A stretch of DNA of 51,627 nucleotides from positions 1 through 51,627 of the forward strand of contig JAPLXR010000009.1 of NCBI GenBank assembly GCA_026395955.1, given 5' to 3'. This DNA is from Candidatus Nomurabacteria bacterium (GTDB lineage: Bacteria; Patescibacteriota; Minisyncoccia; Phycocordibacterales; UBA9973). The notes below the pieces were generated by a model that saw nothing but the letters and a program-made list of their open reading frames with translations, was not told where the DNA came from and made no database searches. A program made the translations under genes and the position numbers. This document shows, one piece after another, positions 25,357 to 43,297 of the stretch; the stretch's first letter is position 1, and each line of letters begins with the position of its first letter.

Positions 25357-25406
25357 ATAAAAATATTTTTATTTTCTTAATTAAACTGATATAATAATAT
25401 TATATT

Positions 25407-28400
25407 ATGAAATTTTTGCGTCCAAAAAAAGATGAAAAGACTAAGCATTTTTTTATGCAAGATATCGTTCGAAGAACGATTGATAATCATCCTATTTTGA
25501 AAGAAAATTTACCCGTTATAGAAATTCATTTTGATAGAGCTAAAGAATTATTTCTTGAACACCGTCGAGCTATTTTTGGTATTTTAACTTTAGTTGTATC
25601 TCTTTCAATCTTGAGTGCTTTCTCTATGGGTCATGCTTCAGTTACAAATTTTTATCCTACAAGCTGTCTTGGTGGTTGGGAACATCCAGAGAATGCACAA
25701 GGTGAACCAGACTTACCAAGCGGTTCATCTCCAGAGAGTTTTAGTGTTTCAAATTCTGCGCGACTAGATAAATCCAGTGGCTCTATTTTCTGTGGAGGTT
25801 TCAAGGGAGAAGTTTTAGATAATACACAGCCGACAAATTTTCATTTATCTTTTTCTTGGTCTGTGGATGATGGTTCAGTAAATCATAACGAAGTAAAACC
25901 ATTTGAAAATGTTTCCAATACTGATCAACAAAATACAAATCCTGTAGATAATACAAATTCTAATTCTACAGATACAAATAATTCTACTGCAACAGATGTA
26001 AATAATAATTCAAACTTAGATTTAATTGAAGTTCCAAGTAATTCTGATACACAAAATAATAGTGCTGATAATTCTGTGAATATTCCATCATCAGATCCTG
26101 CACCAGCTCCTGTAGAATCTGCACCTGCACCAGAACCCGCTCCTTCTCAAAACGATAATCCTGTTTCAGCATTTTTATATAATTTATTTTCTACTCCTGC
26201 CTTCGCAGAAGATTTTAGTAATAGTTCATCTACACCAGAATTAATTTCAGAACCTGTTGTTACAGATACATCTACAGATTCAAATGCTTCTACTTCTAGT
26301 GAAAATAAAAATACAGGAGATGAATTATTAAATCAAGAATTAAATTCAGATAAAAACCTATCTGATGCATTTGCCGAAGTAGAATACACTCTCGATGGTA
26401 CAGATTGGAAAACTTTAGGAACTATAAGTCGTAGTCAGTGGCAAAATGCGTCTTTTAATATTCCACTCGATGCTTGGGCAAATCTGGACAATCTTCAAGT
26501 TTCAATAAAAACATTACCGACTTATGATACTCCTGCTGTTATATATTTAGACGCTATGAAAATGAGTGTCGAATATCAAGACATAAAAGAAATCCTTAAT
26601 CGTCCGACGGTTGAATTAAAAGATTCAAGTAATGTTATTTCAAGTCCACAACAAGATTTTAATTCTAGTGAAAATGTTAACTTTACTATAAATACTCCAA
26701 ACTTGGATATTAATGATATTAAAGATTTAGTAAATAATGGTACTGCTGAAATTGTCGATGATAAAGCTGGAGTTCTCACAGATACTCCTGTTATAGATAA
26801 CACAACTTCTAATAATACTATTAATTCTATAAAAGATATTGTAAAACCCACTGCTGATTCTTTAAATAAAGCATTACCAGATGACTTAAATTCAGCTCAA
26901 GTTATAGTTTTACCTGATATACCTAAAACGACGACAGATACAAAAATAATAACAGAAGAAAAACCAGTTTCATTGCTGGATTTTTTCGAAACAAAAAAAG
27001 CTCTAGCTGACGCTCCAGATATTACAGCAAAAGTTTTAGATTTAAATGGAGATGATACAGATATTAGTGCTCGAGTTGTGCCTGTAACTATAAATGGTAT
27101 CAATAAACAGCAAGTTCAAATAATAAAAGGTAGGGAATTCAAGCCTGGAAAATATACACTGAAAGTTTCAGTTAATACACCACAAGCGATAATCGTTTCA
27201 CAACAAGATTTTACTTGGGGTGTTTTGTCTATTAACACAAATAAAAGTATTTTTGAGGTAGGTGATGATGCTTATTTACAAATGGGAGTATTGAATGATG
27301 GTGGACATACTATCTGTGATGCTGATTTAAATTTGTCTATTACTAGTCCTAGCGGAATAGTAAATAATTTTTCAACTAGTGATGATTCTATAATTCGTGA
27401 AAAACAATGTGGACCAGACAATGTTATTTCTGTACCAGACTATTACGCACATTTCAATATTCCTAGTGAAATTGGTACTTATACAATGAGACTTACAGCA
27501 AATACTATAAATGGCACAAAAAATATTTCTGATACTTTTAATGTTGTGCATAATTCTAATTTTGTAGTTGAACGTGTGGGACCATCCCGTATATATCCAT
27601 ACGATACTCCGTACCCAATGAATATAAAAATTACTGCAAAAAATAATTGGCAGGGAATTGTCAGTGAATATGTACCAGAAAGTTTTGATATTTCACAAGA
27701 TACTAATGGTGTGCAATATATTTCTGTAAATATAGTAGAAGACCCTAGTGATCCTACTATACAAGTAAAGAAAATTTCTTGGAATGTATCACTTGTAGCA
27801 AATCAAGAAACAGACCTCGGATATATTTTCAATGCTCCACCTGTGAGTCCAGAATTTTATATACTTGGAAAAATTCAATTAAATAATAATGGAAATCTTT
27901 CTTTTGAAGAAGCTCGTAATTGGCAGATAGCATCTGATGCTGCATGTAACGCAACTGTCACAGGAACATGGGGAGGAACAGATACTGCTACTTTTACGTC
28001 TTGTACTGGTGCAGCGAGTACTGGTACAGGAACTGGTGCTAGACCAGGATCAGCTGATACTTTAACTATTAACTCTGGTGTAGTTGTTACACTCGCTACA
28101 ACCGCGTCTCTAACTTCTTTAACTCTTGCGACTTCAACTGTTGCAAACGGATTAGTAATAAATGATGGAAATACCTTAACTGTTTCAGGTGCTCTAACTT
28201 TTAATACGTCTGTTACAAACTCGTCTGTAACTCTCGGTTCGAGTACTGGTGCTGGTAACTTGACTGTAGGATCTATTTCTATGGCTGCACCAACTACTGC
28301 TGTTGCTTCTATTGAAAAAATAAACTGTTCGGCGAGTGGAACTGGAACTTTAACTGTTTCAGGAACTGGAACTATCGCTATTACTGGTAGTAGTACCGCA

Positions 28401-31400
28401 TCAAACACTGGTTCAGCAAGTATTGATATGACTGCTGGTGCTTGTAATGTTATTACGGGAACTGGTACAAATACTTTGACCGCAGGTACAACAGGAGCGA
28501 CACCAAATGCATTTATAAGAATGGGAACTGGAACAATTACTTTTAATAGTAGTTTAACTTTTGCTGGAGCAACAGCCAGTAAAGATGCTCTTATTACTGC
28601 AAACGGTACAACTATTTCATTGAACAATGCATCTTTGCCAGCAGTTGGAACTTCTGGTTCATATACTATTACAGGAAATACAAACTTAATTTCGGCTGGA
28701 ACAAGTTCTGTTGCTTATGCAACAGCTGTATCAACATGGGGAACATTAACAGTGAACAGTGGAACTTTGACATTGAGTGCGGCGGCAGAAACATTTACTG
28801 GCGCAGTAAACATTGCCGGAGGAACATTATCACTCGGAAACACCTTTACAGCTTCGAGCACGACTTCGGTGACGGGAACTATTTCAAACTTAAACAGTGC
28901 TACAGTAAAAACTTTTACAGGATTAGTTACAGTAAACTCTGGAGGATCAATTAACTTAACTACTGCTACTGTGCCTGTTGTGGTTATTGGTGCTGGTGTT
29001 ACCACATCGTCTGGTGCTAGTACTGTAAACTTTGGAACGGGAGCTACGACTTTTTCTAACGCATCACCGACTTTTACTGGGCCTGTCGCTGTAACAATTG
29101 GTGCTGTCACCTTAGCATCAGGTCAAACATTAACTAACAATATGAGTGCGACTCTTACATTGGCATCACTTACATTTGGTTCTGCTCCTGCTTCTGCTAT
29201 AACTGCTACACTTTCAACTGGATCAACGACTACTGTAACTGGAGCTATTACCTATGCCGTAGGAGCAAGTGCTCAGAGTGAAAGTATTTTATTAAACGGT
29301 ACCGCAAACTTAAACGCAGGATCTATTTCTATGCCAGCGATGACTGCAGCAGGTTCTGCTTTGATAACTTGTGTATCGTCTTGTAGTGGAACTTTAACAA
29401 CGACTGGTGCTGTGACTGTGACAGGGAATAGTACAGCTGCACAAACCGGAGTTTCAACTATTGCTATGAGTACAGGTAATATGAGTATTGGAGGATTGCT
29501 TACTATTGCTGGTGGAACTGTGACTGCTGCTACTGTATCTCAAAGTACAGGTAATATGACATTATCTGCTGGTATTACTTTTTCTGGAACAGCAGCAAAC
29601 ACTAGATTGACGACAACAGGAGCAAATACGATTTCTTTTGCGGGTAACTGGACAAATACATCAGCCCCAACTCTTACTATAAATTCTGGTACAACTTTAA
29701 AAACAACTGGAACTGCGACATTGTGTGTGACAAATGGTATGACATGGCCAGGAAAATTGTGGGTATCTGCTGGTACAACTTCACTCGCATTAGCTGAAAC
29801 AATTACTGGTACAACACAAGTTACAAGTACACTTAACAATACTAACGGTAACACGGCTAAAATTTTCGGTGGTCTTATTACTGTAAACTCTGGAGGAACT
29901 TTTGATATGACTGTAGTTACAGCACCTTCTGTCGAATTTCGTGGAGGTATTCAGGTAGATAGTGGTGCAGTAAAATTTGCAACAACAGGAACAACAACAT
30001 TTACCACAGCAAACCAATCAATTTCTGGTGGAGGAAGTATCGGTATTTCATTTGGTGTAGCTACTGTTAACGCAAACATTTTGTTAACAAATAGTTATAC
30101 TGGAGGTACTGTTACTTTTAACTCAACTTTAAACTTGACAGCTCCTACTTCCGCTAGTGATGGTTTAAGTTTATCTACTGGTACTACTACTGTAGTCACT
30201 ACAATTATTACACTTGGAGCGAATGCTGCTGCTGGTGCTTTTACTGAACTTGTTACTTTAAATGGAACGGCAGTTTTTACCGCTGGAACTACAACTTTAT
30301 CTGCACCGACATCTACAACAGCAGGAGCAACAGAAGGAATTATCGCGGCTTCTGGAGCATCAGGTAATGTGAGTTTAGGTGCTACTACTTTGACTTGTAC
30401 TGGTGTCGGAACACAGTTTTGTGGAATAGATTTATCTCTAGGAACAAATGCACTTTCTGTTTCTACTCTTTCTGCTTCTGGTAGTAATACTGATGTTGCA
30501 AAAGTTTTAATGAGTTCCGGAACATTTACTTCAAGTGGACTTATTACTATTACTGGTGCCTCTACTTTAAATCCTTCAGCTGTTTTAACTACAACCACAG
30601 GTAATGTAAATATAAATGCCGGTCTCACTTTTGCTGGAACAGTTGCCAATACTCAATGGAATACTGGTGCAGAAATTATAAACTTTGTAGGAACGATGTC
30701 TGGTGCTGGAGTTATTAATATAAACTCTGGAGCAACTTTTAATACTAGTGGTGTTGCATCTTTGAGTTCTCCTATAACTTTACCGAATTTAAATATATTG
30801 TCAGGAACAACAACAATGGGAGCAATATTGATTACGGTATCTGGTGCTACAAATGTTACAGGTGCTATGGTAAATGCAAGTAGTGCTCTAGCTAAAACTT
30901 TTACAGGATTAGTGACCGTTAACAACGGAGGATCAATTAACTTAACAACAGCTACAGTACCTGCTGTTAGTTTTGCCACAGGTGTCACGACTGTTACTGG
31001 TGCTGGTACTGTAAACTTTGGAACAGGCGCTACTACATTTACAGCTAGTTCTTCTTTTAATGGTCCTGTCGGAATAACAATTGGTGCTACTACTATTAAC
31101 TCTGGAGTTGTTGTTACAAATAACAACACAGCGACAGTTACAATGAGTTCTTTGACCTTAGCTTCTGCTACTTCGGGAACAACTGGCATGTCACTTACTA
31201 CAGGATCTACTACAACAATTACTGGAGCACTTACTTATACTGCCAATGCTGGTGTAGGACTCAATGAAGTTATTACAATGAATGGTACTGCAAACTTAAA
31301 CGCTGGTTCTGTTGTAATGCCTGCTGGAAGTAATACTGGAAACTCATCTGTAACTTGTGCTGCTGGATCTGGAACATTTACTGTTACTGGTGCTTTAGGT

Positions 31401-34322
31401 GTTACAGCAGGAACTACTGCCGGTGCTTCAACCCTCGCAATGGATACTTGCACACTTGCTGCAAATGGACTTGTTACAATTACAGGAGGTACTGTAGGTG
31501 TGGCTAGTATTTCTGCTTCAACTGGAACTTTAGACTTCAATGCTGGTATTACTTTTGCAGTAACATTGGCTCAGGCTCGTATTACAACTTCAGGTGCGGC
31601 AAACATTTATATAACAGGAACAGTTGGTGGTGTGGGAATACTTTCTGGTATTAACTCAGCTACAACAATATACACTCAAGGAGTAGTAAATATAAATGCC
31701 GCTTTAACATTTCCTAATATGACTGTCTCAACAGGAACGACAACAATTTCTCAAGCAACAACTATTTCAAATGGTTTAACTGTCTCAAGTGGAGCAATTT
31801 TACAATTCACAGGAGTTGCCTTTACTTCAAGTAGTACTACGACAGTTAATGGAGCTATAAACTGTACTGTTGCTGCAACTTGTACTGGTACGAAAACTTT
31901 TACAGGTGCAGTTACAGTGAATAACGGGGGAAGTTTTAATCTTAATACTCCTGCACCATCAGTCTTTCCTACTTTAGTTTTTGGTAGTGATATTACTGTA
32001 AATACAGGTGGAGATTTAAATACAGGTATTGCAGGTACCACAAATACTTTTACAGGAAACTTAACCTTATCAGGAGGAGGCACGATGACTTTTAATGGAA
32101 CTGTTGCAAATGCTACAACAATTAACTCAGGAGTATTAGTGACAAATAGTAATACAAATACAGTAACATTTGGAGTTTTGACTTTAGCTTCTGGATCTAC
32201 AGGTCTGTCACTTTCTACTGGATCAACAACGACAGTTTCAGGATTGCTTTCAGCGTCAGCTAATGCTACAGCTACAAATACAAATATAGCAATGAATGGA
32301 ACTGCGAATCTAAATGCTGGAACATTTACAATTACTCCACCTACTAGTACTGGAAATGTTGGTGTTACTTGTAATGCTAGTTCTGGAACATTTACAGTTA
32401 CTGGGGTGACAACGATATCAGGAAATGCGACTTCAACAGGAACGGCAAATATGCTTATGGATAGTTGTAATTTTTCTGCTGGTGGTGCTGTAAACATGGG
32501 TGGAGGAGCAAATGCTGTCGGAGGTATCGATACTCTTTCTTTTAGTACTGGTACACTTACATTTTTAACTGGTATTACTTTTGCAGGAACAAGTCAGGCT
32601 AGAAATAAACTTACTACTACAGGTGCAGGTATTATAAATCTCACTGGTACAATGACAGGAGGTGGAACAATTTCAATTGATTCAACTACTACATTTAATA
32701 CTACAGGAACAACTGGTTTTTCGTCTCCCATTACACTTCCAAATTTAAATGTTCTTTCTGGTACAACTACAATGAATGGTGTAACTATTACTGTAAATGG
32801 TGCAACAAATATTTCAGGAACACTCGCAACAGGAAGTATTACCGGTACAAAAACATTTACCGGGTTAGTCGATGTAAATCCTTCTGCAAGTTTTGATTTT
32901 ACTGCTTTTGCTACGGCGACAAGTTTTGGTAGTGGTATTAATATGGATGGAACAACATTCAATACTGGTACAGGTACAACTACTTTTTCTGCATCACAAA
33001 GCCTAAGTGGCTCTACTGCTATGATTTTCGGTGGAGCAGTAACGATAAGTAGTGGATTTACTTTAACAAATAGTAATACTAGTACAGTTGACTTTAACAG
33101 TAGTATTACAGGAGGTAATGGATCTTCTAACTTTGCAACAGATATCAACTCAACAACGAACTTCGGAGGCGCAACAATGGCAACAGGAACACTTACTCCA
33201 AGCACAAGTGTAAATACTATTGCTTATGATGGAGGAACACAGACAATAGAAGCCCCGATAACAAATCCGTATTACAATTTAAATATTACAGCTGCTGGAG
33301 TAAAAAGTTTAGCCGCGATTACTACAGTAACTAATACGATAAATATTTCAGCAGGAACTCTCGATACAACAAGTGCTTCACATTATAATATAAACACTGG
33401 GAATATGACTATAGGTGGTAGTGGAACATTACTCGGACAAGCTGCAACTATTACACTCACTGGTAATTGGTCAAACGCTGGTGTATTTACAGCAGGAACT
33501 TCAACTGTAATTATGAATGGTGGTACAACTGCATCTGTAACAGGAACGACAACATTTAATAATCTAACCATTACACACACAAGCGCAAAAGAAGTTGATT
33601 TCGATTCAACTGGTATTACACACGTGACAGGAATATTTACTGTAACAGGGCATTCTGGTAATTTGATAACTTTACGTTCAGATGCAACTCCGACAAAATG
33701 GCAAATACATCCGACAGGTACTGCGAGTGCTGACTATGTAGACGTAATGGACGGAGGATGTCAAAGCGGATCTACCAATATCTCACCAACTAATTTTACA
33801 AATAGTGGAAACAATGACGGTTGTTGGGTTCCAACTTTCGTTTCTTTTACTTATTCTAATTCTGATTCTAGTATTGGTTTTGGAACGTTATCTTCTCTGG
33901 GTGTGTGTTATGCTACAAATGACACATTGGGTTCTGCTACAGATGTCGTTGCTCATAGTTTAAATATGGTAACAAATGCTGTTTCAGGATATACACTTAC
34001 ATATTTTGGAAATACTTTAACTTCTGGGTTAAATACAATTAGCCCAGCTATTAATATCAATACTGGTGGAACATCTGGAACATCTCAATTTGCAATTTCA
34101 GGTACAATGACGAGTTCTGGTACTGGTGCTATGGTATCAGGCTATAATCATGTTACTCCACAATGGTCTTTTGTAGATGGTGCAACTACAACAATTGCAT
34201 CTTCTTCGGGTCCTGCAACTTCTGATACTGTCGATATGCACTATGAAGCAAATATTTCTCCTATAACTCCAGCAGGGAATTATTCTACAAATATTACTTA
34301 TATAGTTACAGGAAATTTTTAA
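25407..34322 (+). CDS. Giant (2971 aa) N-terminally membrane-anchored surface protein. It has low-complexity stalks, Ig-like domains, about 5-6 Thr/Gly/Ala-rich repeats of ~330 aa (beta-helix-like) and a C-terminal subunit-like domain.
   Basis: TM segment IFGILTLVVSLSILSAF near aa 55-75. N/T/D/S-rich and PAPAPVESAPAPEPAP linkers. Repeated ...KTFTG(L/A)VTVN(S/N)GGS(I/F)NL... and ...(L/M)NGTANLNAG... units. A near-C-terminal SGNNDGCW motif. The last ~160 aa are homologous to the product of 34436-35506. Confidence 0.85.
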   Translation: MKFLRPKKDEKTKHFFMQDIVRRTIDNHPILKENLPVIEIHFDRAKELFLEHRRAIFGILTLVVSLSILSAFSMGHASVTNFYPTSCLGGWEHPENAQGEPDLPSGSSPESFSVSNSARLDKSSGSIFCGGFKGEVLDNTQPTNFHLSFSWSVDDGSVNHNEVKPFENVSNTDQQNTNPVDNTNSNSTDTNNSTATDVNNNSNLDLIEVPSNSDTQNNSADNSVNIPSSDPAPAPVESAPAPEPAPSQNDNPVSAFLYNLFSTPAFAEDFSNSSSTPELISEPVVTDTSTDSNASTSSENKNTGDELLNQELNSDKNLSDAFAEVEYTLDGTDWKTLGTISRSQWQNASFNIPLDAWANLDNLQVSIKTLPTYDTPAVIYLDAMKMSVEYQDIKEILNRPTVELKDSSNVISSPQQDFNSSENVNFTINTPNLDINDIKDLVNNGTAEIVDDKAGVLTDTPVIDNTTSNNTINSIKDIVKPTADSLNKALPDDLNSAQVIVLPDIPKTTTDTKIITEEKPVSLLDFFETKKALADAPDITAKVLDLNGDDTDISARVVPVTINGINKQQVQIIKGREFKPGKYTLKVSVNTPQAIIVSQQDFTWGVLSINTNKSIFEVGDDAYLQMGVLNDGGHTICDADLNLSITSPSGIVNNFSTSDDSIIREKQCGPDNVISVPDYYAHFNIPSEIGTYTMRLTANTINGTKNISDTFNVVHNSNFVVERVGPSRIYPYDTPYPMNIKITAKNNWQGIVSEYVPESFDISQDTNGVQYISVNIVEDPSDPTIQVKKISWNVSLVANQETDLGYIFNAPPVSPEFYILGKIQLNNNGNLSFEEARNWQIASDAACNATVTGTWGGTDTATFTSCTGAASTGTGTGARPGSADTLTINSGVVVTLATTASLTSLTLATSTVANGLVINDGNTLTVSGALTFNTSVTNSSVTLGSSTGAGNLTVGSISMAAPTTAVASIEKINCSASGTGTLTVSGTGTIAITGSSTASNTGSASIDMTAGACNVITGTGTNTLTAGTTGATPNAFIRMGTGTITFNSSLTFAGATASKDALITANGTTISLNNASLPAVGTSGSYTITGNTNLISAGTSSVAYATAVSTWGTLTVNSGTLTLSAAAETFTGAVNIAGGTLSLGNTFTASSTTSVTGTISNLNSATVKTFTGLVTVNSGGSINLTTATVPVVVIGAGVTTSSGASTVNFGTGATTFSNASPTFTGPVAVTIGAVTLASGQTLTNNMSATLTLASLTFGSAPASAITATLSTGSTTTVTGAITYAVGASAQSESILLNGTANLNAGSISMPAMTAAGSALITCVSSCSGTLTTTGAVTVTGNSTAAQTGVSTIAMSTGNMSIGGLLTIAGGTVTAATVSQSTGNMTLSAGITFSGTAANTRLTTTGANTISFAGNWTNTSAPTLTINSGTTLKTTGTATLCVTNGMTWPGKLWVSAGTTSLALAETITGTTQVTSTLNNTNGNTAKIFGGLITVNSGGTFDMTVVTAPSVEFRGGIQVDSGAVKFATTGTTTFTTANQSISGGGSIGISFGVATVNANILLTNSYTGGTVTFNSTLNLTAPTSASDGLSLSTGTTTVVTTIITLGANAAAGAFTELVTLNGTAVFTAGTTTLSAPTSTTAGATEGIIAASGASGNVSLGATTLTCTGVGTQFCGIDLSLGTNALSVSTLSASGSNTDVAKVLMSSGTFTSSGLITITGASTLNPSAVLTTTTGNVNINAGLTFAGTVANTQWNTGAEIINFVGTMSGAGVININSGATFNTSGVASLSSPITLPNLNILSGTTTMGAILITVSGATNVTGAMVNASSALAKTFTGLVTVNNGGSINLTTATVPAVSFATGVTTVTGAGTVNFGTGATTFTASSSFNGPVGITIGATTINSGVVVTNNNTATVTMSSLTLASATSGTTGMSLTTGSTTTITGALTYTANAGVGLNEVITMNGTANLNAGSVVMPAGSNTGNSSVTCAAGSGTFTVTGALGVTAGTTAGASTLAMDTCTLAANGLVTITGGTVGVASISASTGTLDFNAGITFAVTLAQARITTSGAANIYITGTVGGVGILSGINSATTIYTQGVVNINAALTFPNMTVSTGTTTISQATTISNGLTVSSGAILQFTGVAFTSSSTTTVNGAINCTVAATCTGTKTFTGAVTVNNGGSFNLNTPAPSVFPTLVFGSDITVNTGGDLNTGIAGTTNTFTGNLTLSGGGTMTFNGTVANATTINSGVLVTNSNTNTVTFGVLTLASGSTGLSLSTGSTTTVSGLLSASANATATNTNIAMNGTANLNAGTFTITPPTSTGNVGVTCNASSGTFTVTGVTTISGNATSTGTANMLMDSCNFSAGGAVNMGGGANAVGGIDTLSFSTGTLTFLTGITFAGTSQARNKLTTTGAGIINLTGTMTGGGTISIDSTTTFNTTGTTGFSSPITLPNLNVLSGTTTMNGVTITVNGATNISGTLATGSITGTKTFTGLVDVNPSASFDFTAFATATSFGSGINMDGTTFNTGTGTTTFSASQSLSGSTAMIFGGAVTISSGFTLTNSNTSTVDFNSSITGGNGSSNFATDINSTTNFGGATMATGTLTPSTSVNTIAYDGGTQTIEAPITNPYYNLNITAAGVKSLAAITTVTNTINISAGTLDTTSASHYNINTGNMTIGGSGTLLGQAATITLTGNWSNAGVFTAGTSTVIMNGGTTASVTGTTTFNNLTITHTSAKEVDFDSTGITHVTGIFTVTGHSGNLITLRSDATPTKWQIHPTGTASADYVDVMDGGCQSGSTNISPTNFTNSGNNDGCWVPTFVSFTYSNSDSSIGFGTLSSLGVCYATNDTLGSATDVVAHSLNMVTNAVSGYTLTYFGNTLTSGLNTISPAININTGGTSGTSQFAISGTMTSSGTGAMVSGYNHVTPQWSFVDGATTTIASSSGPATSDTVDMHYEANISPITPAGNYSTNITYIVTGNF
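27945..33560 (+). repeat. Tandem ~1-kb coding repeats (about 5-6 units) inside the 2971-aa gene
   Basis: The landmark NGTA(N/V)(L/F)(N/T)AG recurs near 29290, 30260, 31275 and 32290. The KTFTG landmark recurs near 28908, 29865, 30894, 31890 and 32850. DNA similarity between units is roughly three-quarters by eye (for example 28908-29100 versus 30894-31090). Confidence 0.75.
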
Positions 34323-34380
34323 TTTTTTTTTAGAAAATAATTATGTGGATAACCTTTTGTTGTTTTTATTTGTGTGAATA

Positions 34381-34389
34381 TGATATAAT
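34381..34389 (+). promoter_or_regulatory. Extended -10 TGaTATAAT upstream of the 356-aa subunit gene
   Basis: tgatataat at 34381-34389 in the 113-nt gap after the giant gene. This implies an internal promoter for the downstream genes. Confidence 0.35.
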
Positions 34390-34435
34390 AAATACAATAA
34401 ATACGTAAAAATTATTATTATTATTATTTAAAATA

Positions 34436-35506
34436 ATGAAATTATTTAAATCAAAATTTGTGTCTGCATTCTTAATCCTCGCGGTTGTTTTTTTTAGTTC
34501 TGGTTTGTTTGTGAATCATGCATACGCTGCATCGATCACTACTTTTTCGGACACACTTTCAAATGAAAATGCAAGTGCTGTGTCAAACCATGACATCTCT
34601 TTCGTCACTCCTACTGGTGTTGCCAGTGGTCAAACAATCATTTTAACTTTCGACAACAGTACTTCTATTAATGCATCTCTCGACTTTAGTGATATAGATG
34701 TGCTCGACAACGGTACGAACGTCACACTCGCTGCGTCACCGACTGGAGCTACGTGGGGAGCAGTAAGAACTTCAGCTACTGTTATTACACTTACTAATGG
34801 TACAACTGCAGTCACTGCGGGACATACTATTCGTATCAAAATTGGAACAAACGCAACTAACCAATCTACTGGTGTTCGCCAAATAACAAACGGTCCTGCA
34901 GGTACTACTACGCTTGCAATCTCGGGAACTTTTACTGATACTGGTACACTCGCGATGGCTATCATTTCAAACGACGTAGTCACAGTAACTGCAACAGTAG
35001 CTCCGACTATTTCTTTCGCTCTATCTTCAAATGCTATTAGTTTTGGTACATTAACATCTGCTAATGGTAAATGGGCTGATTCATCTACAGGGCAAACAGC
35101 TATAGCAGGTAACCTTCCAACAGCTGCTCATACTATGACAGTTTCTACTAATGCTAGTTCGGGTTATGTTGTTTCAGAATTAGGTACAACACTCGCATCT
35201 GGCGCTAATACCATAGCAGCTGCTACTATTTCAGCAGATAGTGATGGTACTCCTAACTCTGCACAGTTTGCTACATCTTTTAGTACTAGTGGATCATCAA
35301 CTATTAATACTTCATATGCACGAAGTTCAAACAGTAGTTGGAGTTACGCAAACTCTGCTTCAGTGCCTGTAGTTATTGTAACTTCTCCTGCAGCACCAGT
35401 ATCTTCAGAAGTCATTACCGCATCTTATTTAGCAAATATTAGTGGTTCTACTCCAGCAGGATCTTATACTACTGGAGTTACTTACATAGCTACTGCAACA
35501 TTCTAA
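34436..35506 (+). CDS. Secreted 356-aa surface subunit. Its C-terminal half is homologous to the C-terminus of the giant protein (WxL-like or pilin-like, unassigned).
   Basis: Signal peptide MKLFKSKFVSAFLILAVVFFSSGLFVNHAYA. ISF..S...ISFGTL, TNASSGY, TLASGANTI, QFA and ANISGSTPAGSYTTGVTYIATATF align with the tail of the giant protein. Confidence 0.7.
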   Translation: MKLFKSKFVSAFLILAVVFFSSGLFVNHAYAASITTFSDTLSNENASAVSNHDISFVTPTGVASGQTIILTFDNSTSINASLDFSDIDVLDNGTNVTLAASPTGATWGAVRTSATVITLTNGTTAVTAGHTIRIKIGTNATNQSTGVRQITNGPAGTTTLAISGTFTDTGTLAMAIISNDVVTVTATVAPTISFALSSNAISFGTLTSANGKWADSSTGQTAIAGNLPTAAHTMTVSTNASSGYVVSELGTTLASGANTIAAATISADSDGTPNSAQFATSFSTSGSSTINTSYARSSNSSWSYANSASVPVVIVTSPAAPVSSEVITASYLANISGSTPAGSYTTGVTYIATATF

Positions 35507-35513
35507 AAAAAAT

Positions 35514-36560
35514 ATGAAATTTATAAAAATTTATTCAACAAAAAAAACACTTCTAATATTTTCTTTTGTGCTTGTAACTATTTTTTCTCCAATTCATAAA
35601 TCTTTCGCTCTCACTCTTACGCCTATTCGCCTTGAAATAAACGGTGATACAGGTCAAACTCTTTCAGAAGAAATGACCTTGATAAATGAGAGGGATACAG
35701 AAGAAACTTACTATTCTTCTTATGCAAACTTTGAAGCACAAGGGGAAAGTGGTAGTCCATCTTTCGTAGAAGCCAAAGACGATATCGGCACTTGGATGAG
35801 TGCAGTACCATCAATAGTTCTTCCTCCTAAAAGTTCTAAAATAGTTCAAGTTAAAATAGCTATACCATCTAATGCAGATGCTGGTGGACATTTCGGTGCA
35901 ATATTTTGGGGAACAACACCTCCTAATAATACTGGAACAAGTGTTTCCATCGGTGCAAAGACAGGTATGCTTGTACTCCTCCGTGTAAATGGAGATGTTG
36001 CTGAAAAAGGCGGAGTATTAGAATTTGCTACACAAAACAAACAAACATATTTTACTTCATTACCTATTTCTTTCTATTATCGTTTCCAAAACAATGGAGG
36101 TGACCGTATCAAGCCAACAGGAGATATCTTGATGAAAGATACGATAGGTCTTACTGGTGCAAAGATTTCTGCTAATCCTGTAGAAGGAAATATTTTACCA
36201 AATCAAGTTCGTAAATTTGAGACGGTTTGGCAAGGTAAAGATGGTCCTACACCACTCGACGATAAATCACAAGGAAACTTTTTCAATAAAGTAGGTTATG
36301 AATGGAGAAACTTTGCTTTTGGACGCTACAAAGCAGAGATGAATCTTTCTTATGGTACAAAGAATGAAGTAGCAACTGCAGTTTTTTCTTTCTGGGTATT
36401 TCCATGGCATTTAACTTTACTTAGTATTATTGCCTTATTAATTATTTTCTTCGGTGGTAAATTCTTGATAAAGAAATACAATCATTGGGTCATTTCACAA
36501 GCAGAAGCTATGATAAAGCGTGAAAATGAAATCCATGATAAACATAAAGCTCACAAATAA
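35514..36560 (+). CDS. Cell-surface Ig-fold protein with a C-terminal TM anchor, DUF916/DUF3324-like (CscA-like or chaperone-like)
   Basis: Signal peptide; LTLTPIRLEINGDTGQTLSEEMTLIN; PPKSSKIVQVKIAIPSNADAGGHFGAIFW; LPNQVRKFETVW...FGRYKAEMNLSY; a C-terminal TM helix LTLLSIIALLIIFFGG followed by a basic tail. Confidence 0.5.
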   Translation: MKFIKIYSTKKTLLIFSFVLVTIFSPIHKSFALTLTPIRLEINGDTGQTLSEEMTLINERDTEETYYSSYANFEAQGESGSPSFVEAKDDIGTWMSAVPSIVLPPKSSKIVQVKIAIPSNADAGGHFGAIFWGTTPPNNTGTSVSIGAKTGMLVLLRVNGDVAEKGGVLEFATQNKQTYFTSLPISFYYRFQNNGGDRIKPTGDILMKDTIGLTGAKISANPVEGNILPNQVRKFETVWQGKDGPTPLDDKSQGNFFNKVGYEWRNFAFGRYKAEMNLSYGTKNEVATAVFSFWVFPWHLTLLSIIALLIIFFGGKFLIKKYNHWVISQAEAMIKRENEIHDKHKAHK

Positions 36561-37506
36561 TTTTAATAAATTTATAAATAATAAAAACAAGAAAGCATTT
36601 TTCTTGTTTTTATTTATATTTTTATTTCCATTATTTTCTAATGCTAGTAGCTGTACTACTACACTCGGAGGTACTTGTAATTTAAATGATTCTATAACTA
36701 TTTCAGCTACGGTTGGTTCTAGTGGTGGTGGAGGAGGCGGAGGAGGCGGCGGTTCTGGCGGTGGCAGTTATAATCCATCTACGAGTGTTACTTTTTCTGG
36801 TTTTGCTTATCCATTATCTAGAGTTATCTTACTCCAAGATGGTCAAGAAATTTTAAATACAGTTGCTGGTCCTGATGCTCATTTTAGTATTACTGTTTCA
36901 AATTTAAATACAGGAGTATATACATTTTCAATTCTAGGTGAAGATTCTAATGGACAAAGATCTACACTTTTTACTATTCCTATTTCTACAACTTCTAACG
37001 TCGCTACAGATGTTTCAGGAATATTTATTGCCCCTACTATTGAGATAGATAAAGAGCAAGTCAAGCAAGGTGATACTATAACTGTTTTCGGAAAAACAGT
37101 TCCGAATGCTACTGTTATAATTCAAACCCATTCCGATAATTTAATTCAAGATACTGTTACTTCTGATAATTCTGGAGGATATATTTATAATCTAAATACT
37201 ACTCCTTTGGAATATGGTAACCATATTACAAAATCAAAATCTTCTTTAACGAATGTAAATACAAACCCGACCTCTTCTTTTAGTAAATTGCTTTCATTTA
37301 AAGTTGGTAGTGAAAATATAATGAAAAAAGATGCTTGTGGAAATATCGCTGATTTTAATAATGATTGTCATGTTAATTTAATAGATTTTTCTATAATGGC
37401 GTATTGGTATCATAGGACTGGAGTGCCAAAAGAAATTGATTTAAATGGAGATAGTTTTATAAATTTGGTTGATTTTAGTATATTAGCTTATCATTGGAAT
37501 GGTTAA
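36535..37506 (+). CDS. Secreted protein with a poly-Gly linker, two Ig-like domains and a C-terminal dockerin-like module
   Basis: Signal peptide ...KKAFFLFLFIFLFPLFSNA and SSGGGGGGGGGGSGGGS. The duplicated Ca-binding-type segments DFNNDCHVNLIDFSIMAYWY and DLNGDSFINLVDFSILAYHW form the dockerin pattern. The ORF opens at GTG 36520, and the ATG at 36535 is a plausible start. Confidence 0.6.
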   Translation: MINIKLTNNFNKFINNKNKKAFFLFLFIFLFPLFSNASSCTTTLGGTCNLNDSITISATVGSSGGGGGGGGGGSGGGSYNPSTSVTFSGFAYPLSRVILLQDGQEILNTVAGPDAHFSITVSNLNTGVYTFSILGEDSNGQRSTLFTIPISTTSNVATDVSGIFIAPTIEIDKEQVKQGDTITVFGKTVPNATVIIQTHSDNLIQDTVTSDNSGGYIYNLNTTPLEYGNHITKSKSSLTNVNTNPTSSFSKLLSFKVGSENIMKKDACGNIADFNNDCHVNLIDFSIMAYWYHRTGVPKEIDLNGDSFINLVDFSILAYHWNG

Positions 37507-38410
37507 AAATATTTTTAAAATTAAATATCTCTTAATGTTTGGATTATTGATATTTTTTATAATACCAAATTTTTCTTTTGCTTCTGAAATTGATTTCAAA
37601 ACAAATACTCCCAATTTAGGTATAGGTGATGAATTTACAGTTCAAGTTATTCTAAATACTCAAGGTCAAAGTATGAATGCAATATCCGGAGATATTAATT
37701 TCGATGATAGTTTTTTATCAGCTGAAAATGTTATTTTTGCTAATTCTATAGTTCCTGTTTGGATAGATTCACCTCATATTTCAGGGAATTCAATTGTTTT
37801 TTCCGGAATAATGCCGGGAGGGTATCAATCTACAGTAGATCCTGTAACACAAAATAGTGTCCCTGGAGTTATTTTTAATATTAATTTTAAAGTTAAATCC
37901 GCTGGTCAAAATTTAATACAATTTAATGATATTCATGTTTATAAAAACGATGGATTAGGAACTGAAGATATTGTTTCTATTAATCCATTTATTTTAAATT
38001 TAAATGATGTTGGTAGTAATTATGTTGTAAATAATGTGGATATTATTCCACCAGAAAATTTTACACTTACGATATTTAATGATAAAAATATTTATGATGG
38101 TAAAAATGTATTAATTTTTAGTACAAATGATAAACAAAGTGGTATTGATCATTATGAAATAAAAGAAGGCAAATATGATTGGATTCGTAGTGAAAGTCCT
38201 TATTTATTACTTGATCAAAATTTATCTGGTGAAATTGACGTAAAAGCCATAGATCTAGCCGGGAATTATACTATCAGTAAAATAAATAAATCAAAGAATT
38301 ATTTAGATATTATATTATTGTTAATTATTGCAATTATTTTATTCATTTCGCTCTTGATTCATCGTAGTCATTTGCGGTATCATAAGAAGAGGATAAGAAA
38401 TGAAAAATAA
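37499..38410 (+). CDS. Membrane-anchored cohesin-like protein (303 aa)
   Basis: Signal peptide; NLGIGDEFTVQVILNTQGQSMNAISGDINFDDSFLSAENV...GVIFNINFKVKSAG (cohesin-type beta-sandwich pattern); C-terminal TM IILLLIIAIILFISLLI plus the basic tail HRSHLRYHKKRIR. The start overlaps the upstream stop. Confidence 0.55.
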   Translation: MVKNIFKIKYLLMFGLLIFFIIPNFSFASEIDFKTNTPNLGIGDEFTVQVILNTQGQSMNAISGDINFDDSFLSAENVIFANSIVPVWIDSPHISGNSIVFSGIMPGGYQSTVDPVTQNSVPGVIFNINFKVKSAGQNLIQFNDIHVYKNDGLGTEDIVSINPFILNLNDVGSNYVVNNVDIIPPENFTLTIFNDKNIYDGKNVLIFSTNDKQSGIDHYEIKEGKYDWIRSESPYLLLDQNLSGEIDVKAIDLAGNYTISKINKSKNYLDIILLLIIAIILFISLLIHRSHLRYHKKRIRNEK

Positions 38411-39719
38411 ATTATTTTTAATAATCATATTAATAGTAGCAGTTTTTTCTGTTGGGCAAAAAGCCCATGCAGCTTCTTTGTATTTAATTCCAGATTTGGG
38501 TACTTATAATATTGATGACACTGTTACTGTTGGTGTTTTTGTTTCTACAACAAATGATAAATCAATTAATGCTATTTCAGGAGAAGTTACTTTTCCTGAA
38601 GATAAATTGAATTTTGTAAATGTTTCTAAGGTTGGATCTATCGTAAATGTTTGGACTACAGAACCTTTTAAAGAAACTAATGATGTTCGTTTTGAAGGTA
38701 TTGTTTTAAATCCGGGATATAATGGGACAAAAGGAAAAATAGCTACAATTACGTTTAAAGCTAAAAATCCAGGTGTAGCTGATTTGGCCTTTATTTCTTC
38801 TTCTGTTTTAGCAAATGATGGGCTAGGAACGAATTTATTAGATAAAACAGGAATAGCAAAATTTACGATTAATAAAACCTTGCCTTCAATAAAGGCTAAT
38901 CCAGTTTTACCTAAACCAAAGAAAGATTCAGGTCTCGTTAATGCAACTTCTACTCCAATGTTTACAATAACTCCAGTACCGACAATGGTTGAAGTAGATT
39001 TACCATATAAACAATTTACTTTTACTATTAGTAATTTAGTTAAACCAATAGCTTCTTATAATATTGCTATAGATAGAGGTAATCCAATAATATGGAATGA
39101 TGATGGTACTGGTATTTATACGACTCCAGAATTAGAATCCGGAAATCATACTTTGGTTGTAGAAGCTGTTGATACTGATGGAAATAAATTAGTTAATAGT
39201 ATTGATTTTACTGTTTCAGCTTTAAAGAAGCCAATAATAAAAATGTCTAACCAAGCCTTGCTCGATGGTGACTTTTTAGTAATTTCCGGTACAGCTACAT
39301 CAAATCAAAATGTAGATATTTATATTAAATCTCAATTAGACAATAGTGATGATATTTATAATATATTATTAGGCAAGACTTCTTTTATACAAGCTGATTT
39401 TGAAAAAGTAGGTACTAGTCTAACTGATAAAAATGGTTTATTTACTTTTGTTTATGATAATAGAATTAAAAATGGTGTATATTCTGTTTATGTAATTTCT
39501 AGAACAGATAATAATATTGAAAGTAAGCCTAGTGATACTGTTTTAATTCATGTAGATAAAAATAGTTTCCAGAAAATTTTAACACTTATTTTTAGAGCAT
39601 TAGTATTTTTCTTGTTACCATTTATCGGTTTATTAACTTTACTTAAATTAATAATTTCTTTCTTTTCTAAAATATATACAATATACAAAAGACATAAAGA
39701 AAGTACAAAAATTGAATAA
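38400..39719 (+). CDS. Membrane-anchored cohesin-like protein with two Ig-like domains (439 aa)
   Basis: Signal peptide; NIDDTVTVGVFVSTTNDKSINAISGEVTFPEDKLNFVNV...GKIATITFKAKNPGVADL; C-terminal TM ALVFFLLPFIGLLTLLKLIISFF. The start overlaps the upstream stop. Confidence 0.55.
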   Translation: MKNKLFLIIILIVAVFSVGQKAHAASLYLIPDLGTYNIDDTVTVGVFVSTTNDKSINAISGEVTFPEDKLNFVNVSKVGSIVNVWTTEPFKETNDVRFEGIVLNPGYNGTKGKIATITFKAKNPGVADLAFISSSVLANDGLGTNLLDKTGIAKFTINKTLPSIKANPVLPKPKKDSGLVNATSTPMFTITPVPTMVEVDLPYKQFTFTISNLVKPIASYNIAIDRGNPIIWNDDGTGIYTTPELESGNHTLVVEAVDTDGNKLVNSIDFTVSALKKPIIKMSNQALLDGDFLVISGTATSNQNVDIYIKSQLDNSDDIYNILLGKTSFIQADFEKVGTSLTDKNGLFTFVYDNRIKNGVYSVYVISRTDNNIESKPSDTVLIHVDKNSFQKILTLIFRALVFFLLPFIGLLTLLKLIISFFSKIYTIYKRHKESTKIE

Positions 39720-41420: not shown

Positions 41421-41425
41421 ATAAT

Positions 41426-43232: not shown

Positions 43233-43297
43233 TTTTGATACAAGTCTTTACTGTGATATAATCACTCTATTATAAGATAAAATATAAATATAAATTT

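What the first reader, a model, noticed from the sequence alone, without database searches (positions are those of the whole stretch)
33829..35506. The giant adhesin's C-terminal domain is a paralog of the small subunit's C-terminal half
What the sequence shows, alignable by eye:
- Giant protein: ...FVSFTYSNSDSSIGFGTLSS...VAHSLNMVTNAVSGYTLTYFGNTLTSGLNTISPA...SQFAISG...HYEANISPITPAGNYSTNITYIVTGNF-stop.
- 356-aa protein: ...TISFALSSNAISFGTLTS...AAHTMTVSTNASSGYVVSELGTTLASGANTIAAA...AQFATSF...ASYLANISGSTPAGSYTTGVTYIATATF-stop.

Both proteins end with an aromatic residue within a few residues of the motif.

Inference: the pattern FG-T-L ... (V/M)-x-T-N-A-x-S-G-Y ... P-A-G-x-Y-x-T-x-(I/V)-T-Y-I resembles the two-motif layout of WxL domains, with Tyr in place of Trp. 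WxL domains bind the cell wall non-covalently.

Alternatively this is a shared polymerisation domain, as in a tip adhesin plus major pilin. An extended -10 promoter (34381-34389) just upstream of the small gene would allow it to be made in excess over the giant protein, as expected for a major subunit.
Basis: partly seen in the sequence, partly recalled or inferred. Interest (0 to 1): 0.7.

Follow-up and report, generated by a model that had tools for sequence, protein, structure and literature searches.

The report
Giant-tipped Pam-type pilus operon
The shared C-terminal domain is the subunit-joining domain of a recently described pilus of ultra-small (CPR) bacteria: the 2971-residue protein looks like its adhesive tip and the 356-residue protein its shaft, and the assembly chaperone next door links the system to the WxL surface proteins of Gram-positive bacteria.

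Summary
The last 163 residues of the 2971-aa protein align with residues 191-356 of the 356-aa protein (35% identity, E=4e-18).

Both domains pass the curated cutoff of NCBIfam NF058581, "Pam pilus system pilin subunit" (Troman et al. 2026 preprint; cryo-EM donor-strand-exchange pili of CPR bacteria).

- **356-aa protein:** a two-domain pilin with a conserved but disordered donor linker (NDVVTVTATV).
- **Giant protein:** has the acceptor domain but no donor strand, like the tip subunit PamT.
- **Next gene:** a two-Ig, membrane-anchored chaperone. Its best structural matches are E. faecium WxLIP and chaperone-usher chaperones; hhalign to WxLIP gives 97%.

The WxL reading fails Pfam membership. 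It may still reflect deep homology: the partner protein, cluster layout and collinear motifs agree, but domain-to-domain hhalign gives only P about 0.01.

New here:
- Large tip fusions are common: 62 of 150 representative clusters exceed 400 aa.
- A co-operonic Ig-dockerin protein carries the same donor motif and no acceptor domain, next to two membrane-anchored cohesin-like proteins. This suggests a cohesin-dockerin pilus anchor.

Verdict: new variant of a known kind.

The parts
25387..25395 (+). TGATATAAT extended -10-like element 12 nt upstream of the first ATG of the giant gene (a second in-frame Met lies at codon 17)
   Evidence: The four exact TGATATAAT copies in the window are all on the + strand and lie 12-49 nt upstream of an ORF start. 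The total count of TGNTATAAT equals chance (7 found, 6.2 expected).
25407..34322 (+). Giant secreted protein (2971 aa), proposed pilus tip adhesin. Long N-terminal leader with a hydrophobic signal segment. Residues about 850-2800 are Thr/Gly/Ala/Ser-rich with about five roughly 350-aa modules seen by eye.
   Evidence: Translation. Composition (T 21-24% from residue 1001 to 2750). The only Pfam hit is a weak PATR match. The same synteny, SpoU methylase then giant then pilin, is found in L072, and giant then pilin then chaperone in L073 and L074.
33831..34319 (+). C-terminal Pam-type acceptor domain of the giant (163 aa), with no donor strand before it. The preceding module ends ...GNNDGCWV and the domain starts PTFVSFTY.
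   Evidence: NF058581 scores 61.4 bits against a cutoff of 55. There is a weaker but near full-length match to PamT NF058579 (24 bits, model positions 58-241 of 241). BLASTP to the pilin domain gives E=4e-18. No linker motif is present.
34381..34389 (+). TGATATAAT extended -10-like element in the 113-nt AT-rich spacer between the giant and pilin genes
   Evidence: No terminator-like site was found in the spacer.
34436..35506 (+). Two-domain Pam-type pilin (356 aa). Signal peptide residues 1-31 (34436-34528), N-terminal beta-sandwich residues 32-177 (34529-34966), C-terminal acceptor domain residues 191-356 (35006-35503).
   Evidence: NF058581 scores 57.2 bits against a cutoff of 55. The AF2 model has pLDDT 89.7 and two beta-rich domains. 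More than 952 homologues were found, and those with names are Parcubacteria, Paceibacterota or Nomurabacteria.
34967..35005 (+). Inter-domain linker SNDVVTVTATVAP (residues 178-190), the proposed donor strand
   Evidence: Nearly invariant in 60 homologues (D180, V182, A186, T187, V188), yet the lowest-confidence part of the monomer model (mean pLDDT 56 for residues 181-190; below 50 at residues 182-184). The motif is present in 42 of 63 two-domain family members, against 4 of 39 and 1 of 23 of the larger ones.
35514..36560 (+). Membrane-anchored chaperone (348 aa). Signal peptide, two Ig-like domains (residues 33-158 and 166-295), a disordered hairpin loop at 139-146, and a C-terminal transmembrane helix from residue 298.
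   Evidence: AF2 pLDDT 87.2. Foldseek top hits are E. faecium WxLIP 9i1y and 9i25 (E about 1e-11), then RbmA and the chaperone-usher chaperones CfaA, CsuC and EcpB. hhalign to a WxLIP alignment gives 97% probability, E=1e-10. 58 of 62 family members weakly match Pfam WxLIP_PGBD.
36520..37506 (+). Ig (Big_6) plus C-terminal dockerin protein (328 aa; gene callers start it at 323 aa), proposed donor-only basal adaptor or terminator
   Evidence: Big_6 E=5e-7; dockerin 21.5 bits against a cutoff of 22.9. The dockerin passes the cutoff in the L073 and L074 orthologues and is precomputed for most of the 120 listed homologues. The gene overlaps both the chaperone gene and the next gene.
36685..36714 (+). 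NDSITISATV directly after the signal peptide of the dockerin protein, followed by a poly-Gly run; a donor-strand-like segment
   Evidence: It is the best non-self hit of the pilin-linker HMM among 86 window ORFs, E=0.04. 60 of 70 short homologues have the motif in their first 80 aa, and in 59 it is followed by a flexible run. Controls: 3 of 62 chaperones and 0 of 60 pilin N-termini.
37499..38410 (+). Signal peptide + cohesin-like domain + Ig + C-terminal transmembrane helix (303 aa), proposed membrane receptor for the dockerin
   Evidence: Cohesin scores 20.1 bits against a cutoff of 24.1. Counterparts pass the cutoff in L073 (298 aa, 26.1 bits) and L074 (400 aa, 28.5 bits). Sequence.
38400..39719 (+). 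Second signal peptide + cohesin-like (by eye) + Ig (Big_13) + C-terminal transmembrane protein (439 aa)
   Evidence: The L074 436-aa counterpart has a weak cohesin hit. The gene overlaps the previous gene by 11 nt.

Best explanation
The region 25387-39719 encodes a Pam-type pilus of a Parcubacteria-like CPR bacterium. A Pam pilus is a chaperone-assisted, donor-strand-exchange pilus without an usher. The domain shared by the two proteins is its subunit-joining module: an incomplete Ig-like fold whose groove is filled by a beta-strand from another protein.

Proposed mechanism, with its basis:
1. All components are exported by Sec. Signal peptides were read from the sequence.
2. Each C-terminal domain first folds on the membrane-anchored chaperone (35514-36560), which lends a strand from its disordered hairpin. 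This is inferred from WxLIP and PapD-type chaperones.
3. The 356-aa pilin carries both a groove and a donor strand (NDVVTVTATV, between its two domains), so it can polymerise head to tail into the shaft. This follows from the cryo-EM structures of its homologues PamA and PamB.
4. The giant protein has a groove but no donor strand. It can therefore only occupy the distal end, as PamT does, and would display about 2800 residues of fibrous adhesin at the tip.
5. The Ig-dockerin protein has a donor strand but no groove, so it would cap the proximal end. Its dockerin would bind the two membrane-anchored cohesin-like proteins and so anchor the pilus. This step is inference only, with roughly 50% confidence.
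6. A separate extended -10 element before the pilin gene would allow an excess of shaft over tip. This is untested.

The confidence score below applies to steps 1-4.
For: - Both domains pass the curated cutoff of NF058581, CPR_Pam_pilin_C (61.4 and 57.2 bits against 55). The giant's domain also aligns over nearly the full PamT model.
- The Pam system (PamA/B cryo-EM filaments, donor-strand exchange through the inter-domain linker, transmembrane-anchored PapD-like chaperones, linker-less tip PamT) is described in doi 10.64898/2026.03.03.709456.
- The AF2 pilin model has two beta domains. The linker between them is disordered in the model yet nearly invariant in sequence.
- The linker motif is present in 42 of 63 two-domain family members, but in only 4 of 39 members of 401-1000 aa and 1 of 23 members above 1000 aa. 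The window pilin has it and the window giant does not.
- The domain is always at the extreme C-terminus and ends in F or Y in 149 of 150 clusters. This fits a chaperone cleft that binds the terminal carboxylate, as in chaperone-usher systems (established knowledge, not tested here).
- The chaperone is shown by AF2 and Foldseek to be a two-Ig protein with a C-terminal transmembrane helix. Its top hits are WxLIP and the CfaA, CsuC and EcpB chaperones.
- The order giant, pilin, chaperone, Ig-dockerin, cohesin-transmembrane protein recurs in L073 and L074, and the genes from pilin to second cohesin abut or overlap.
- The Ig-dockerin family carries the donor motif followed by a flexible run in 59 of 70 short members.
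Against: - No filament, complex or expression data exist for this organism.
- Scores against NF058581 are only just above the cutoff.
- The published survey found Pam pilins mainly in Saccharimonadia and Microgenomatia, not in Parcubacteria.
- The PDB copy used held no Pam structure, so the pilin model found only generic tandem-Ig matches.
- No PamR-like or PamE-like gene was detected in the window.
- I could not run multimer predictions, so insertion of the strand into the groove was not modelled for any pair.
- The linker-HMM hit on the dockerin protein is marginal on its own (E=0.04).
- The window's own cohesin and dockerin matches are just below the Pfam cutoffs.
Confidence: 0.78

Rival explanations
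1. A static WxL-type surface complex. The shared domain is a Tyr-variant WxL domain. It stays bound to the membrane-anchored WxLIP-like protein, to peptidoglycan, or to both. The giant and small proteins are thereby tethered non-covalently at the cell surface, and no filament forms.
For: - The neighbouring protein is a WxLIP homologue: Foldseek top hits 9i1y and 9i25, hhalign 97%, and 58 of 62 family members hit WxLIP_PGBD.
- The small / large / WxLIP gene layout and the C-terminal domain of about 165 aa match WxL clusters (PMC10599100).
- The blocks FG, G(Y/W)xL and YxTx(L/I)T(Y/W)x(L/I) align collinearly.
- The top four hits of the Pam-domain HMM among 531 ORFs of the Firmicutes loci are WxL proteins.
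Against: - No Pfam WxL match for either window protein or for any of 60 homologues.
- hhalign between the domains gives only P=0.007-0.01, probability 4-5%.
- The pilin Foldseek search did not list the WxL chain of 9i25 among its top 50 hits.
- Both domains pass the Pam pilin model, and Pam homologues are proven filaments.
- A conserved, detached donor strand in the pilin, and again in the dockerin protein, has no role in a purely static tether.
- The same genome uses a true PG_binding_1 domain on its other giant protein.
Confidence: 0.13
2. The shared C-terminal domain is a small outer-membrane beta-barrel anchor. The terminal Phe and the alternating hydrophobic residues would be a BAM beta-signal, as in autotransporters.
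For: Both proteins end in Phe with alternating hydrophobic residues before it. The giant protein has a weak match to the autotransporter passenger repeat PATR.
Against: - AF2 gives a soluble beta-sandwich-type domain at high confidence.
- Named homologues come from CPR bacteria, which are regarded as lacking an outer membrane (established knowledge).
- NCBIfam assigns the domain to Pam pilins.
- The partner protein is anchored in the cytoplasmic membrane.
Confidence: 0.02
3. The similarity is compositional or due to chance, because both proteins are Thr/Ser/Gly/Ala-rich.
For: The family HMM gives spurious weak domain hits along the Thr-rich repeats of the giant protein.
Against: - E=4e-18 with composition-based statistics.
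- Invariant non-repetitive positions across the family: F, G, L, G, Y and others.
- 399 representative clusters carry the domain, and in all 150 listed it is C-terminal.
Confidence: 0.01

Closest known systems
Pam pilus of Candidatus Mycosynbacter amalyticus (PamA/PamB pilins, PamC/PamD chaperones, PamT tip, PamR anchor; Troman et al. 2026, bioRxiv 10.64898/2026.03.03.709456; NCBIfam NF058581 and NF058579)
   Same: - The C-terminal domain passes the family HMM.
- The pilin has two domains with an inter-domain donor linker.
- The chaperone is PapD-like with a C-terminal transmembrane helix.
- The tip subunit is acceptor-only.
- There is no usher or secretin.
- The host is a CPR bacterium.
   Different: - The tip is fused to a 2971-aa fibrous protein instead of being a 241-aa single domain.
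- The window holds only one pilin and one chaperone.
- No RbmA-like PamR or PamE is present. Instead there is a donor-strand-Ig-dockerin protein plus two membrane-anchored cohesin-like proteins.
- The lineage is Parcubacteria/Nomurabacteria-like, not Saccharimonadia or Microgenomatia.
- No ATP synthase genes lie nearby.
WxL / Csc cell-surface clusters of Lactobacillales and Bacillales (small WxL, large WxL, WxLIP = DUF916-DUF3324-TM; PMC10599100; PDB 9i1y and 9i25)
   Same: - The partner protein is homologous in sequence profile and in fold, and has the same C-terminal transmembrane anchor.
- The cluster holds one small and one large protein sharing a C-terminal domain of about 165-185 aa.
- That domain is an incomplete beta-sandwich completed by a strand from the partner.
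- The FG, G-aromatic-x-L and Y..T-aromatic-x-L blocks are collinear.
   Different: - There is no Pfam WxL match, and Tyr replaces both Trp residues.
- The domain ends exactly at the C-terminal Phe rather than at ...TWxLxDxP.
- The donor strand sits directly before the domain.
- WxL proteins are described as peptidoglycan-bound platforms, not filaments.
- Homology between the domains remains statistically inconclusive.
Chaperone-usher pili of Gram-negative bacteria (Pap, Fim, CFA/I, Csu)
   Same: - Subunits have an incomplete Ig fold.
- Assembly uses donor-strand complementation and exchange.
- The chaperone is a two-Ig-domain protein; CfaA, CsuC and EcpB are among the best fold matches.
- The logic of a tip adhesin, a shaft and a terminator is the same.
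   Different: - There is no outer membrane and no usher.
- The chaperone is tethered to the cytoplasmic membrane.
- The donor strand is an internal linker, not an N-terminal extension. One relative, the 213-aa pilin of L074, does have it at the N-terminus.
Cohesin-dockerin scaffolds (cellulosome-type anchoring)
   Same: A type I dockerin-like module on a secreted protein and cohesin-like modules on anchored proteins are encoded side by side.
   Different: - No glycoside hydrolases are involved.
- The cohesin proteins are anchored by a transmembrane helix rather than by SLH domains or sortase.
- The proposed cargo is a pilus base.
- The window's own scores are just below the Pfam cutoffs.

Membership tests
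Pam pilus system (CPR) | C-terminal pilin domain matches NCBIfam NF058581 above its curated cutoff | tested here: met
   Giant domain 61.4 bits and 356-aa protein 57.2 bits, against a cutoff of 55.
Pam pilus system (CPR) | [quoted passage not shown] | tested here: met
   AF2 model with pLDDT 89.7. Strands at residues 37-177 and 192-354. The linker at 178-190 is low-confidence yet nearly invariant in sequence.
Pam pilus system (CPR) | Tip subunit has the acceptor domain but no donor linker (PamT-like) | tested here: met
   The giant lacks the linker motif; the sequence goes from GNNDGCWV directly into the domain. Its domain aligns to PamT model positions 58-241 of 241, but at only 24 bits against an equivalog cutoff of 240, so it is not a PamT orthologue.
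Pam pilus system (CPR) | Operon encodes a PapD/FimC-like chaperone with a C-terminal transmembrane helix | tested here: met
   two Ig domains plus a helix at residues 298-347, with fold hits to CfaA, CsuC and EcpB.
Pam pilus system (CPR) | RbmA-like membrane anchor or terminator (PamR) with an N-terminal strand | tested here: not met
   No such gene was found in the window. A donor-strand-Ig-dockerin protein plus cohesin-transmembrane proteins may replace it.
Pam pilus system (CPR) | Subunits form extracellular donor-strand-exchanged filaments | not testable with these tools
   This needs cryo-EM, biochemistry or multimer modelling.
WxL domain (Pfam PF13731) | Match to the family HMM | tested here: not met
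   No hit for either window protein (E<=1) or for any of 60 homologues (E<=10). As a positive control, 21 of 22 Firmicutes domains hit at up to 2.6e-61.
WxL domain (Pfam PF13731) | Two Trp-x-Leu motifs | tested here: not met
   The corresponding positions read Y-T-L and Y-I-V in the giant, and Y-V-V and Y-I-A in the pilin. Tyr is invariant or nearly invariant there.
WxL domain (Pfam PF13731) | Distant homology by profile-profile comparison | tested here: inconclusive
   hhalign gives P=0.0072 and 0.0097, probability 4-5%. The alignment is collinear over 140 columns at low stringency. The Pam-domain HMM ranks four WxL proteins first among 531 ORFs (E 0.0016-0.0068), but these four are orthologues of one another.
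WxL cluster (Csc type) | Adjacent WxLIP (DUF916-DUF3324-TM) gene, plus one small and one large protein carrying the domain | tested here: met
   The layout is the same. WxLIP homology is shown by Foldseek E=1e-11 to 9i1y and 9i25, hhalign 97%, and 58 of 62 weak PF06030 hits.
WxL cluster (Csc type) | Non-covalent peptidoglycan binding by the domain | not testable with these tools
   This needs a pull-down assay.
Classical chaperone-usher pilus | Outer-membrane usher | tested here: not met
   No usher-like ORF lies in the operon. CPR bacteria are regarded as lacking an outer membrane (established knowledge).

The most novel reading that the evidence does not exclude
Pam pili of CPR bacteria and the WxL/WxLIP (Csc) clusters of Firmicutes may be one ancient superfamily of usher-less, membrane-chaperone-assisted donor-strand systems of single-membrane bacteria.

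- On this reading the WxL domain is the Trp variant of the Pam acceptor domain.
- Small WxL proteins carry a conserved strand right after the signal peptide (for example YxSNGxVxFxPNT), followed by a Pro/Asp-rich linker. This would be a donor strand, so WxL 'platforms' would be donor-strand-linked assemblies rather than simple wall binders.
- In the Parcubacteria branch seen here, the pilus would also be capped by a donor-only Ig-dockerin subunit and held on the membrane by cohesins. That would be a use of cohesin-dockerin pairing not described in the papers I read.
Probability: 0.45. Interest if true: 0.8.

Novelty: new variant of a known kind. Interest (0 to 1): 0.6.

Why it matters
**Host attachment.** CPR bacteria make up a large share of bacterial diversity and are thought to live attached to host cells, yet how most of them attach is unknown. 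This locus suggests that the newly described Pam pilus extends into Parcubacteria. It also suggests that the pilus is routinely used to present very large, variable adhesins at its tip: 62 of 150 representative clusters of the domain exceed 400 aa, and the members with a source name are listed only as hypothetical proteins.

**A testable model.** The locus gives a complete assembly model: an acceptor-only tip, a donor-plus-acceptor shaft, a donor-only cap, and a cohesin anchor.

**Link to WxL proteins.** The locus connects the Pam pilus to the WxL surface proteins of enterococci, listeriae and lactobacilli, whose mode of assembly is still debated. If the link holds, donor-strand exchange would be a general strategy of single-membrane bacteria. 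WxL-associated virulence factors could then be studied, and perhaps inhibited, along the lines developed for chaperone-usher pili.

Tried and rejected
- **Pfam on the window proteins and 60 pilin homologues:** no family matched, and WxL did not appear.
- **Sequence searches of the PDB:** single sequences and profiles of the pilin, the C-terminal domain and the chaperone gave only noise. The PamA/B and WxL/WxLIP entries are beyond HMMER's reach or absent.
- **Foldseek of the full pilin model against the PDB:** only generic tandem-Ig adhesins (ClfA, SdrG, integrin, EbpB, BslA, TTHA1873). No Pam entry and no WxL chain appeared in the top 50.
- **NCBIfam on the chaperone and the downstream genes:** no Pam-specific model matched.
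- **Other Pam components in the window:** HMMs of the C-terminal domain, the pilin N-terminal domain and the chaperone hit only the three expected ORFs.
- **Repeats in the giant gene:** Tandem Repeats Finder on the DNA and a BLASTP self-comparison found nothing, so the modules are too diverged or too compositionally biased.
- **Sigma-70 promoter and terminator scan:** counts were at or below chance, and it did not list the 34381 element because the -35 is weak.
- **Outer-membrane beta-signal, sortase pilus and chance similarity:** all considered and rejected (see rival explanations).
- **Taxonomic names for the large-protein clusters:** only one 'Patescibacteria group' label, plus one probably mis-binned 'Methylophaga' MAG on a 2.9-kb contig.
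- **Direct comparison with M. amalyticus PamC, PamD, PamT and PamR:** not possible, because those sequences could not be fetched.

Full report
**1. The observation**

The window has about 33% G+C. It encodes a 2971-aa ORF (25407-34322) followed by a 356-aa ORF (34436-35506).

BLASTP of the giant's last 207 residues against the small protein gives 35% identity over 168 columns, E=4e-18 with composition correction. It aligns the giant's final ~160 residues with residues 191-356 of the small protein. Both proteins end in Phe.

**2. What the domain is**

Pfam finds nothing in either protein. NCBIfam does. Both domains pass the curated cutoff (55 bits) of NF058581, 'CPR_Pam_pilin_C, Pam pilus system pilin subunit', at 61.4 and 57.2 bits. 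The giant's domain also aligns over almost the whole of the tip-subunit model PamT (NF058579), though far below that model's equivalog cutoff.

The Pam system was described in a 2026 preprint (doi 10.64898/2026.03.03.709456).
- Cryo-EM of filaments from the CPR bacterium Ca. Mycosynbacter amalyticus showed two-domain pilins, PamA and PamB. Their inter-domain linker strand fills the open, truncated Ig-like C-terminal domain of the neighbouring subunit.
- The operon also encodes PapD/FimC-like chaperones that keep a C-terminal transmembrane helix (PamC/D).
- It encodes a single-domain, linker-less tip (PamT).
- It encodes an RbmA-like membrane anchor with an N-terminal strand (PamR).

**3. The 356-aa protein fits the shaft pilin**

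- It has more than 952 homologues. All those with names come from Parcubacteria, Paceibacterota or Nomurabacteria-type CPR genomes.
- An AlphaFold2 model built on 60 homologues is confident (pLDDT 89.7). It shows a signal peptide, a beta-sandwich at residues 37-177, and a second beta domain at 192-354.
- The segment between the domains (SNDVVTVTATVAP, residues 178-190) is the least confident part of the monomer model. Yet it is among the most conserved parts of the alignment: D180, V182, A186, T187 and V188 are nearly invariant. This is what one expects of a strand that only becomes ordered in another subunit's groove.

**4. The giant protein fits a tip subunit**

Its last repeat module ends ...GNNDGCWV and runs straight into the domain (PTFVSFTY...), with no linker motif.

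The pattern is general. A search of 1.84 billion representative proteins with the giant's 163-aa domain found 399 clusters.
- In all 150 listed, the domain sits at the extreme C-terminus. The last residue is F (131) or Y (18).
- By length: 3 are under 160 aa (probable fragments), 22 are single-domain size, 63 are of two-domain pilin size, 39 are 401-1000 aa and 23 exceed 1000 aa.
- A donor-linker motif lies just upstream of the domain in 42 of 63 two-domain proteins. It occurs in only 4 of 39 and 1 of 23 of the larger ones.

Large proteins are therefore acceptor-only. Under donor-strand logic they can sit only at the distal end.

That rests on established knowledge and was not tested here.

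**5. The chaperone, and the WxL question**

The next gene (35514-36560, 348 aa) has a signal peptide, two Ig-like domains, a disordered hairpin (residues 139-146) and a C-terminal transmembrane helix (AF2 pLDDT 87.2).
- Its best PDB fold matches are 'WxLIP from Enterococcus faecium' (9i1y, E=1.1e-11) and 'WxLIP bound to long WxL' (9i25). These are followed by RbmA and the chaperone-usher chaperones CfaA, CsuC and EcpB.
- 58 of 62 family members weakly hit Pfam WxLIP_PGBD (DUF916).
- I fetched 68 real WxL clusters from Firmicutes genomes through the conserved NQIDKxxxYFDLK motif. hhalign of the chaperone family against their WxLIP proteins gives 97% probability, E=1e-10.

WxLIP is the membrane-anchored partner of WxL proteins.

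The domain itself, however, fails WxL membership.
- No Pfam WxL hit for either window protein or for 60 homologues.
- Tyr stands in place of both Trp residues.
- Profile-profile comparison with verified WxL alignments (21 of 22 members pass Pfam WxL) gives only P=0.007-0.01, probability 4-5%.

Suggestive points remain.
- The Pam-domain HMM ranks four WxL proteins (orthologues of one another) first among 531 ORFs of the Firmicutes loci. Two collinear matches stand out: 'GWALKVSGTPLMSGTDTL' against 'GYtitvsGatLtsgsntI', and 'YTTNLTWTL' against 'YsttltYia'.

I regard deep homology of the two domains as plausible but unproven.

**6. The rest of the operon**

The genes from the pilin to 39719 abut or overlap.

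ORF 36520-37506 has a signal peptide, then NDSITISATV, then a poly-Gly run, Ig (Big_6) domains and a C-terminal type I dockerin-like module.
- The NDSITISATV segment is the best non-self match of the pilin-linker HMM in the whole window, E=0.04.
- The feature is conserved. Of 70 homologues of 335 aa or less, 60 have the motif within the first 80 residues, and in 59 a flexible G/S/T/N/P run follows. Controls: 3 of 62 chaperones and 0 of 60 pilin N-termini.
- This protein has no acceptor domain.

The two following ORFs (37499-38410 and 38400-39719) have a signal peptide, a cohesin-like domain, Ig domains and a C-terminal transmembrane helix. The window's own cohesin and dockerin scores are just under the Pfam cutoffs. 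The counterparts in L073 and L074 pass them.

The order large-domain protein, pilin, chaperone, Ig-dockerin, cohesin-transmembrane protein recurs in L073 and L074. From this I infer a donor-only cap whose dockerin plugs into membrane cohesins. It would replace the PamR of the published system. This is inference only.

**7. The promoter claim**

TGATATAAT is at 34381-34389, in a 113-nt AT-rich spacer with no terminator-like hairpin. TGNTATAAT is no more frequent in the window than chance (7 found, 6.2 expected). But all four exact TGATATAAT copies are on the + strand and lie 12-49 nt upstream of ORF starts (3187, 25407, 34436, 43298). A separate promoter for the pilin is therefore plausible. 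Its effect on stoichiometry is untested.

**8. Rivals**

- A static WxL-type tether without polymerisation is the main alternative (about 13%). The conserved detached donor strands and the proven filaments of Pam homologues argue against it.
- An outer-membrane barrel with a beta-signal, a sortase pilus, and compositional chance are rejected.

**9. Novelty and verdict**

The shared domain and its tip/shaft logic are already explained by the Pam pilus, which also has an NCBIfam model. The core finding is therefore not categorically new.

Not covered by the paper (it contains no mention of adhesin, WxL, DUF916, Parcubacteria or Paceibacteria):
- a Parcubacteria branch in which the tip is fused to giant proteins;
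- the candidate cohesin-dockerin anchor with a donor-only adaptor;
- the firm homology of the chaperone to WxLIP, which ties CPR pili to Firmicutes WxL clusters.

I rate this a new variant of a known kind, with interest 0.6.

Noticed in passing
window 36520-39719: A dockerin-bearing Ig protein and two membrane-anchored cohesin-like proteins are encoded in overlapping genes right after the pilus chaperone. The same trio follows the pilus genes in L073 and L074, where the cohesin and dockerin pass the Pfam cutoffs.
   Followed up: yes
L002-L069 (Firmicutes WxL clusters), e.g. the small WxL ORFs of L004, L023 and L039: Small WxL proteins carry a conserved strand-like segment immediately after the signal peptide (for example YxSNGxVxFxPNT or SKAxIxFxxG). 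A Pro/Asp/Thr-rich linker and then the WxL domain follow. It looks like an N-terminal donor strand.
   Followed up: partly
window 3130-3138, 25387-25395, 34381-34389, 43254-43262 (+); 18806-18814 (-): The identical 9-mer TGATATAAT lies 12-49 nt upstream of four + strand ORF starts. TGTTATAAT lies 8 nt upstream of the - strand DprA gene. This suggests extended -10 promoters with short or absent leaders in this genome.
   Followed up: partly
window 6494-17935: A second giant ORF (3813 aa listed; the reading frame is contiguous with ORF 3984-6551, which carries GLUG / M26-N-like motifs). It ends in InlB B-repeat-like domains and a PG_binding_1 domain. That is a different, direct peptidoglycan-anchoring strategy in the same genome.
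   Followed up: partly
window 780-3033 (-): Topoisomerase I is split into two overlapping ORFs. ORF 2200-3033 holds Toprim plus the N-terminal part, and ORF 780-2312 holds the rest plus the zinc ribbons. This could be a frameshift, an assembly error or a genuine split gene.
   Followed up: no
window 41004-41977: A thioredoxin-like protein and a DsbB-like protein are encoded just downstream of the surface-protein operon. This is possible disulfide-forming machinery for the secreted, Cys-containing components.
   Followed up: no
window 22172-22672: A lone Cas2-like / PaaX_M domain ORF (166 aa) with no obvious CRISPR array or other cas genes nearby.
   Followed up: no
L074 9951-10592 and 1983-9500: In this relative the pilin is only 213 aa: signal peptide, donor strand ADEIVNVTSTV and the C-terminal domain, an architecture like a classical chaperone-usher pilin. 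The tip protein (2505 aa) carries MG2 and Peptidase_M14 domains, so tips may be enzymatic as well as adhesive.
   Followed up: partly
L001 10001-15317: Another Parcubacteria locus has two different Pam-domain proteins (369 and 365 aa) interleaved with three chaperone paralogues. The giant protein upstream of them lacks the Pam domain but shares the 'GNNGxCW' module ends with the window's giant.
   Followed up: partly
window 34410-34435: No Shine-Dalgarno-like purine run precedes the pilin ATG. The 25 nt upstream consist only of A and T.
   Followed up: no
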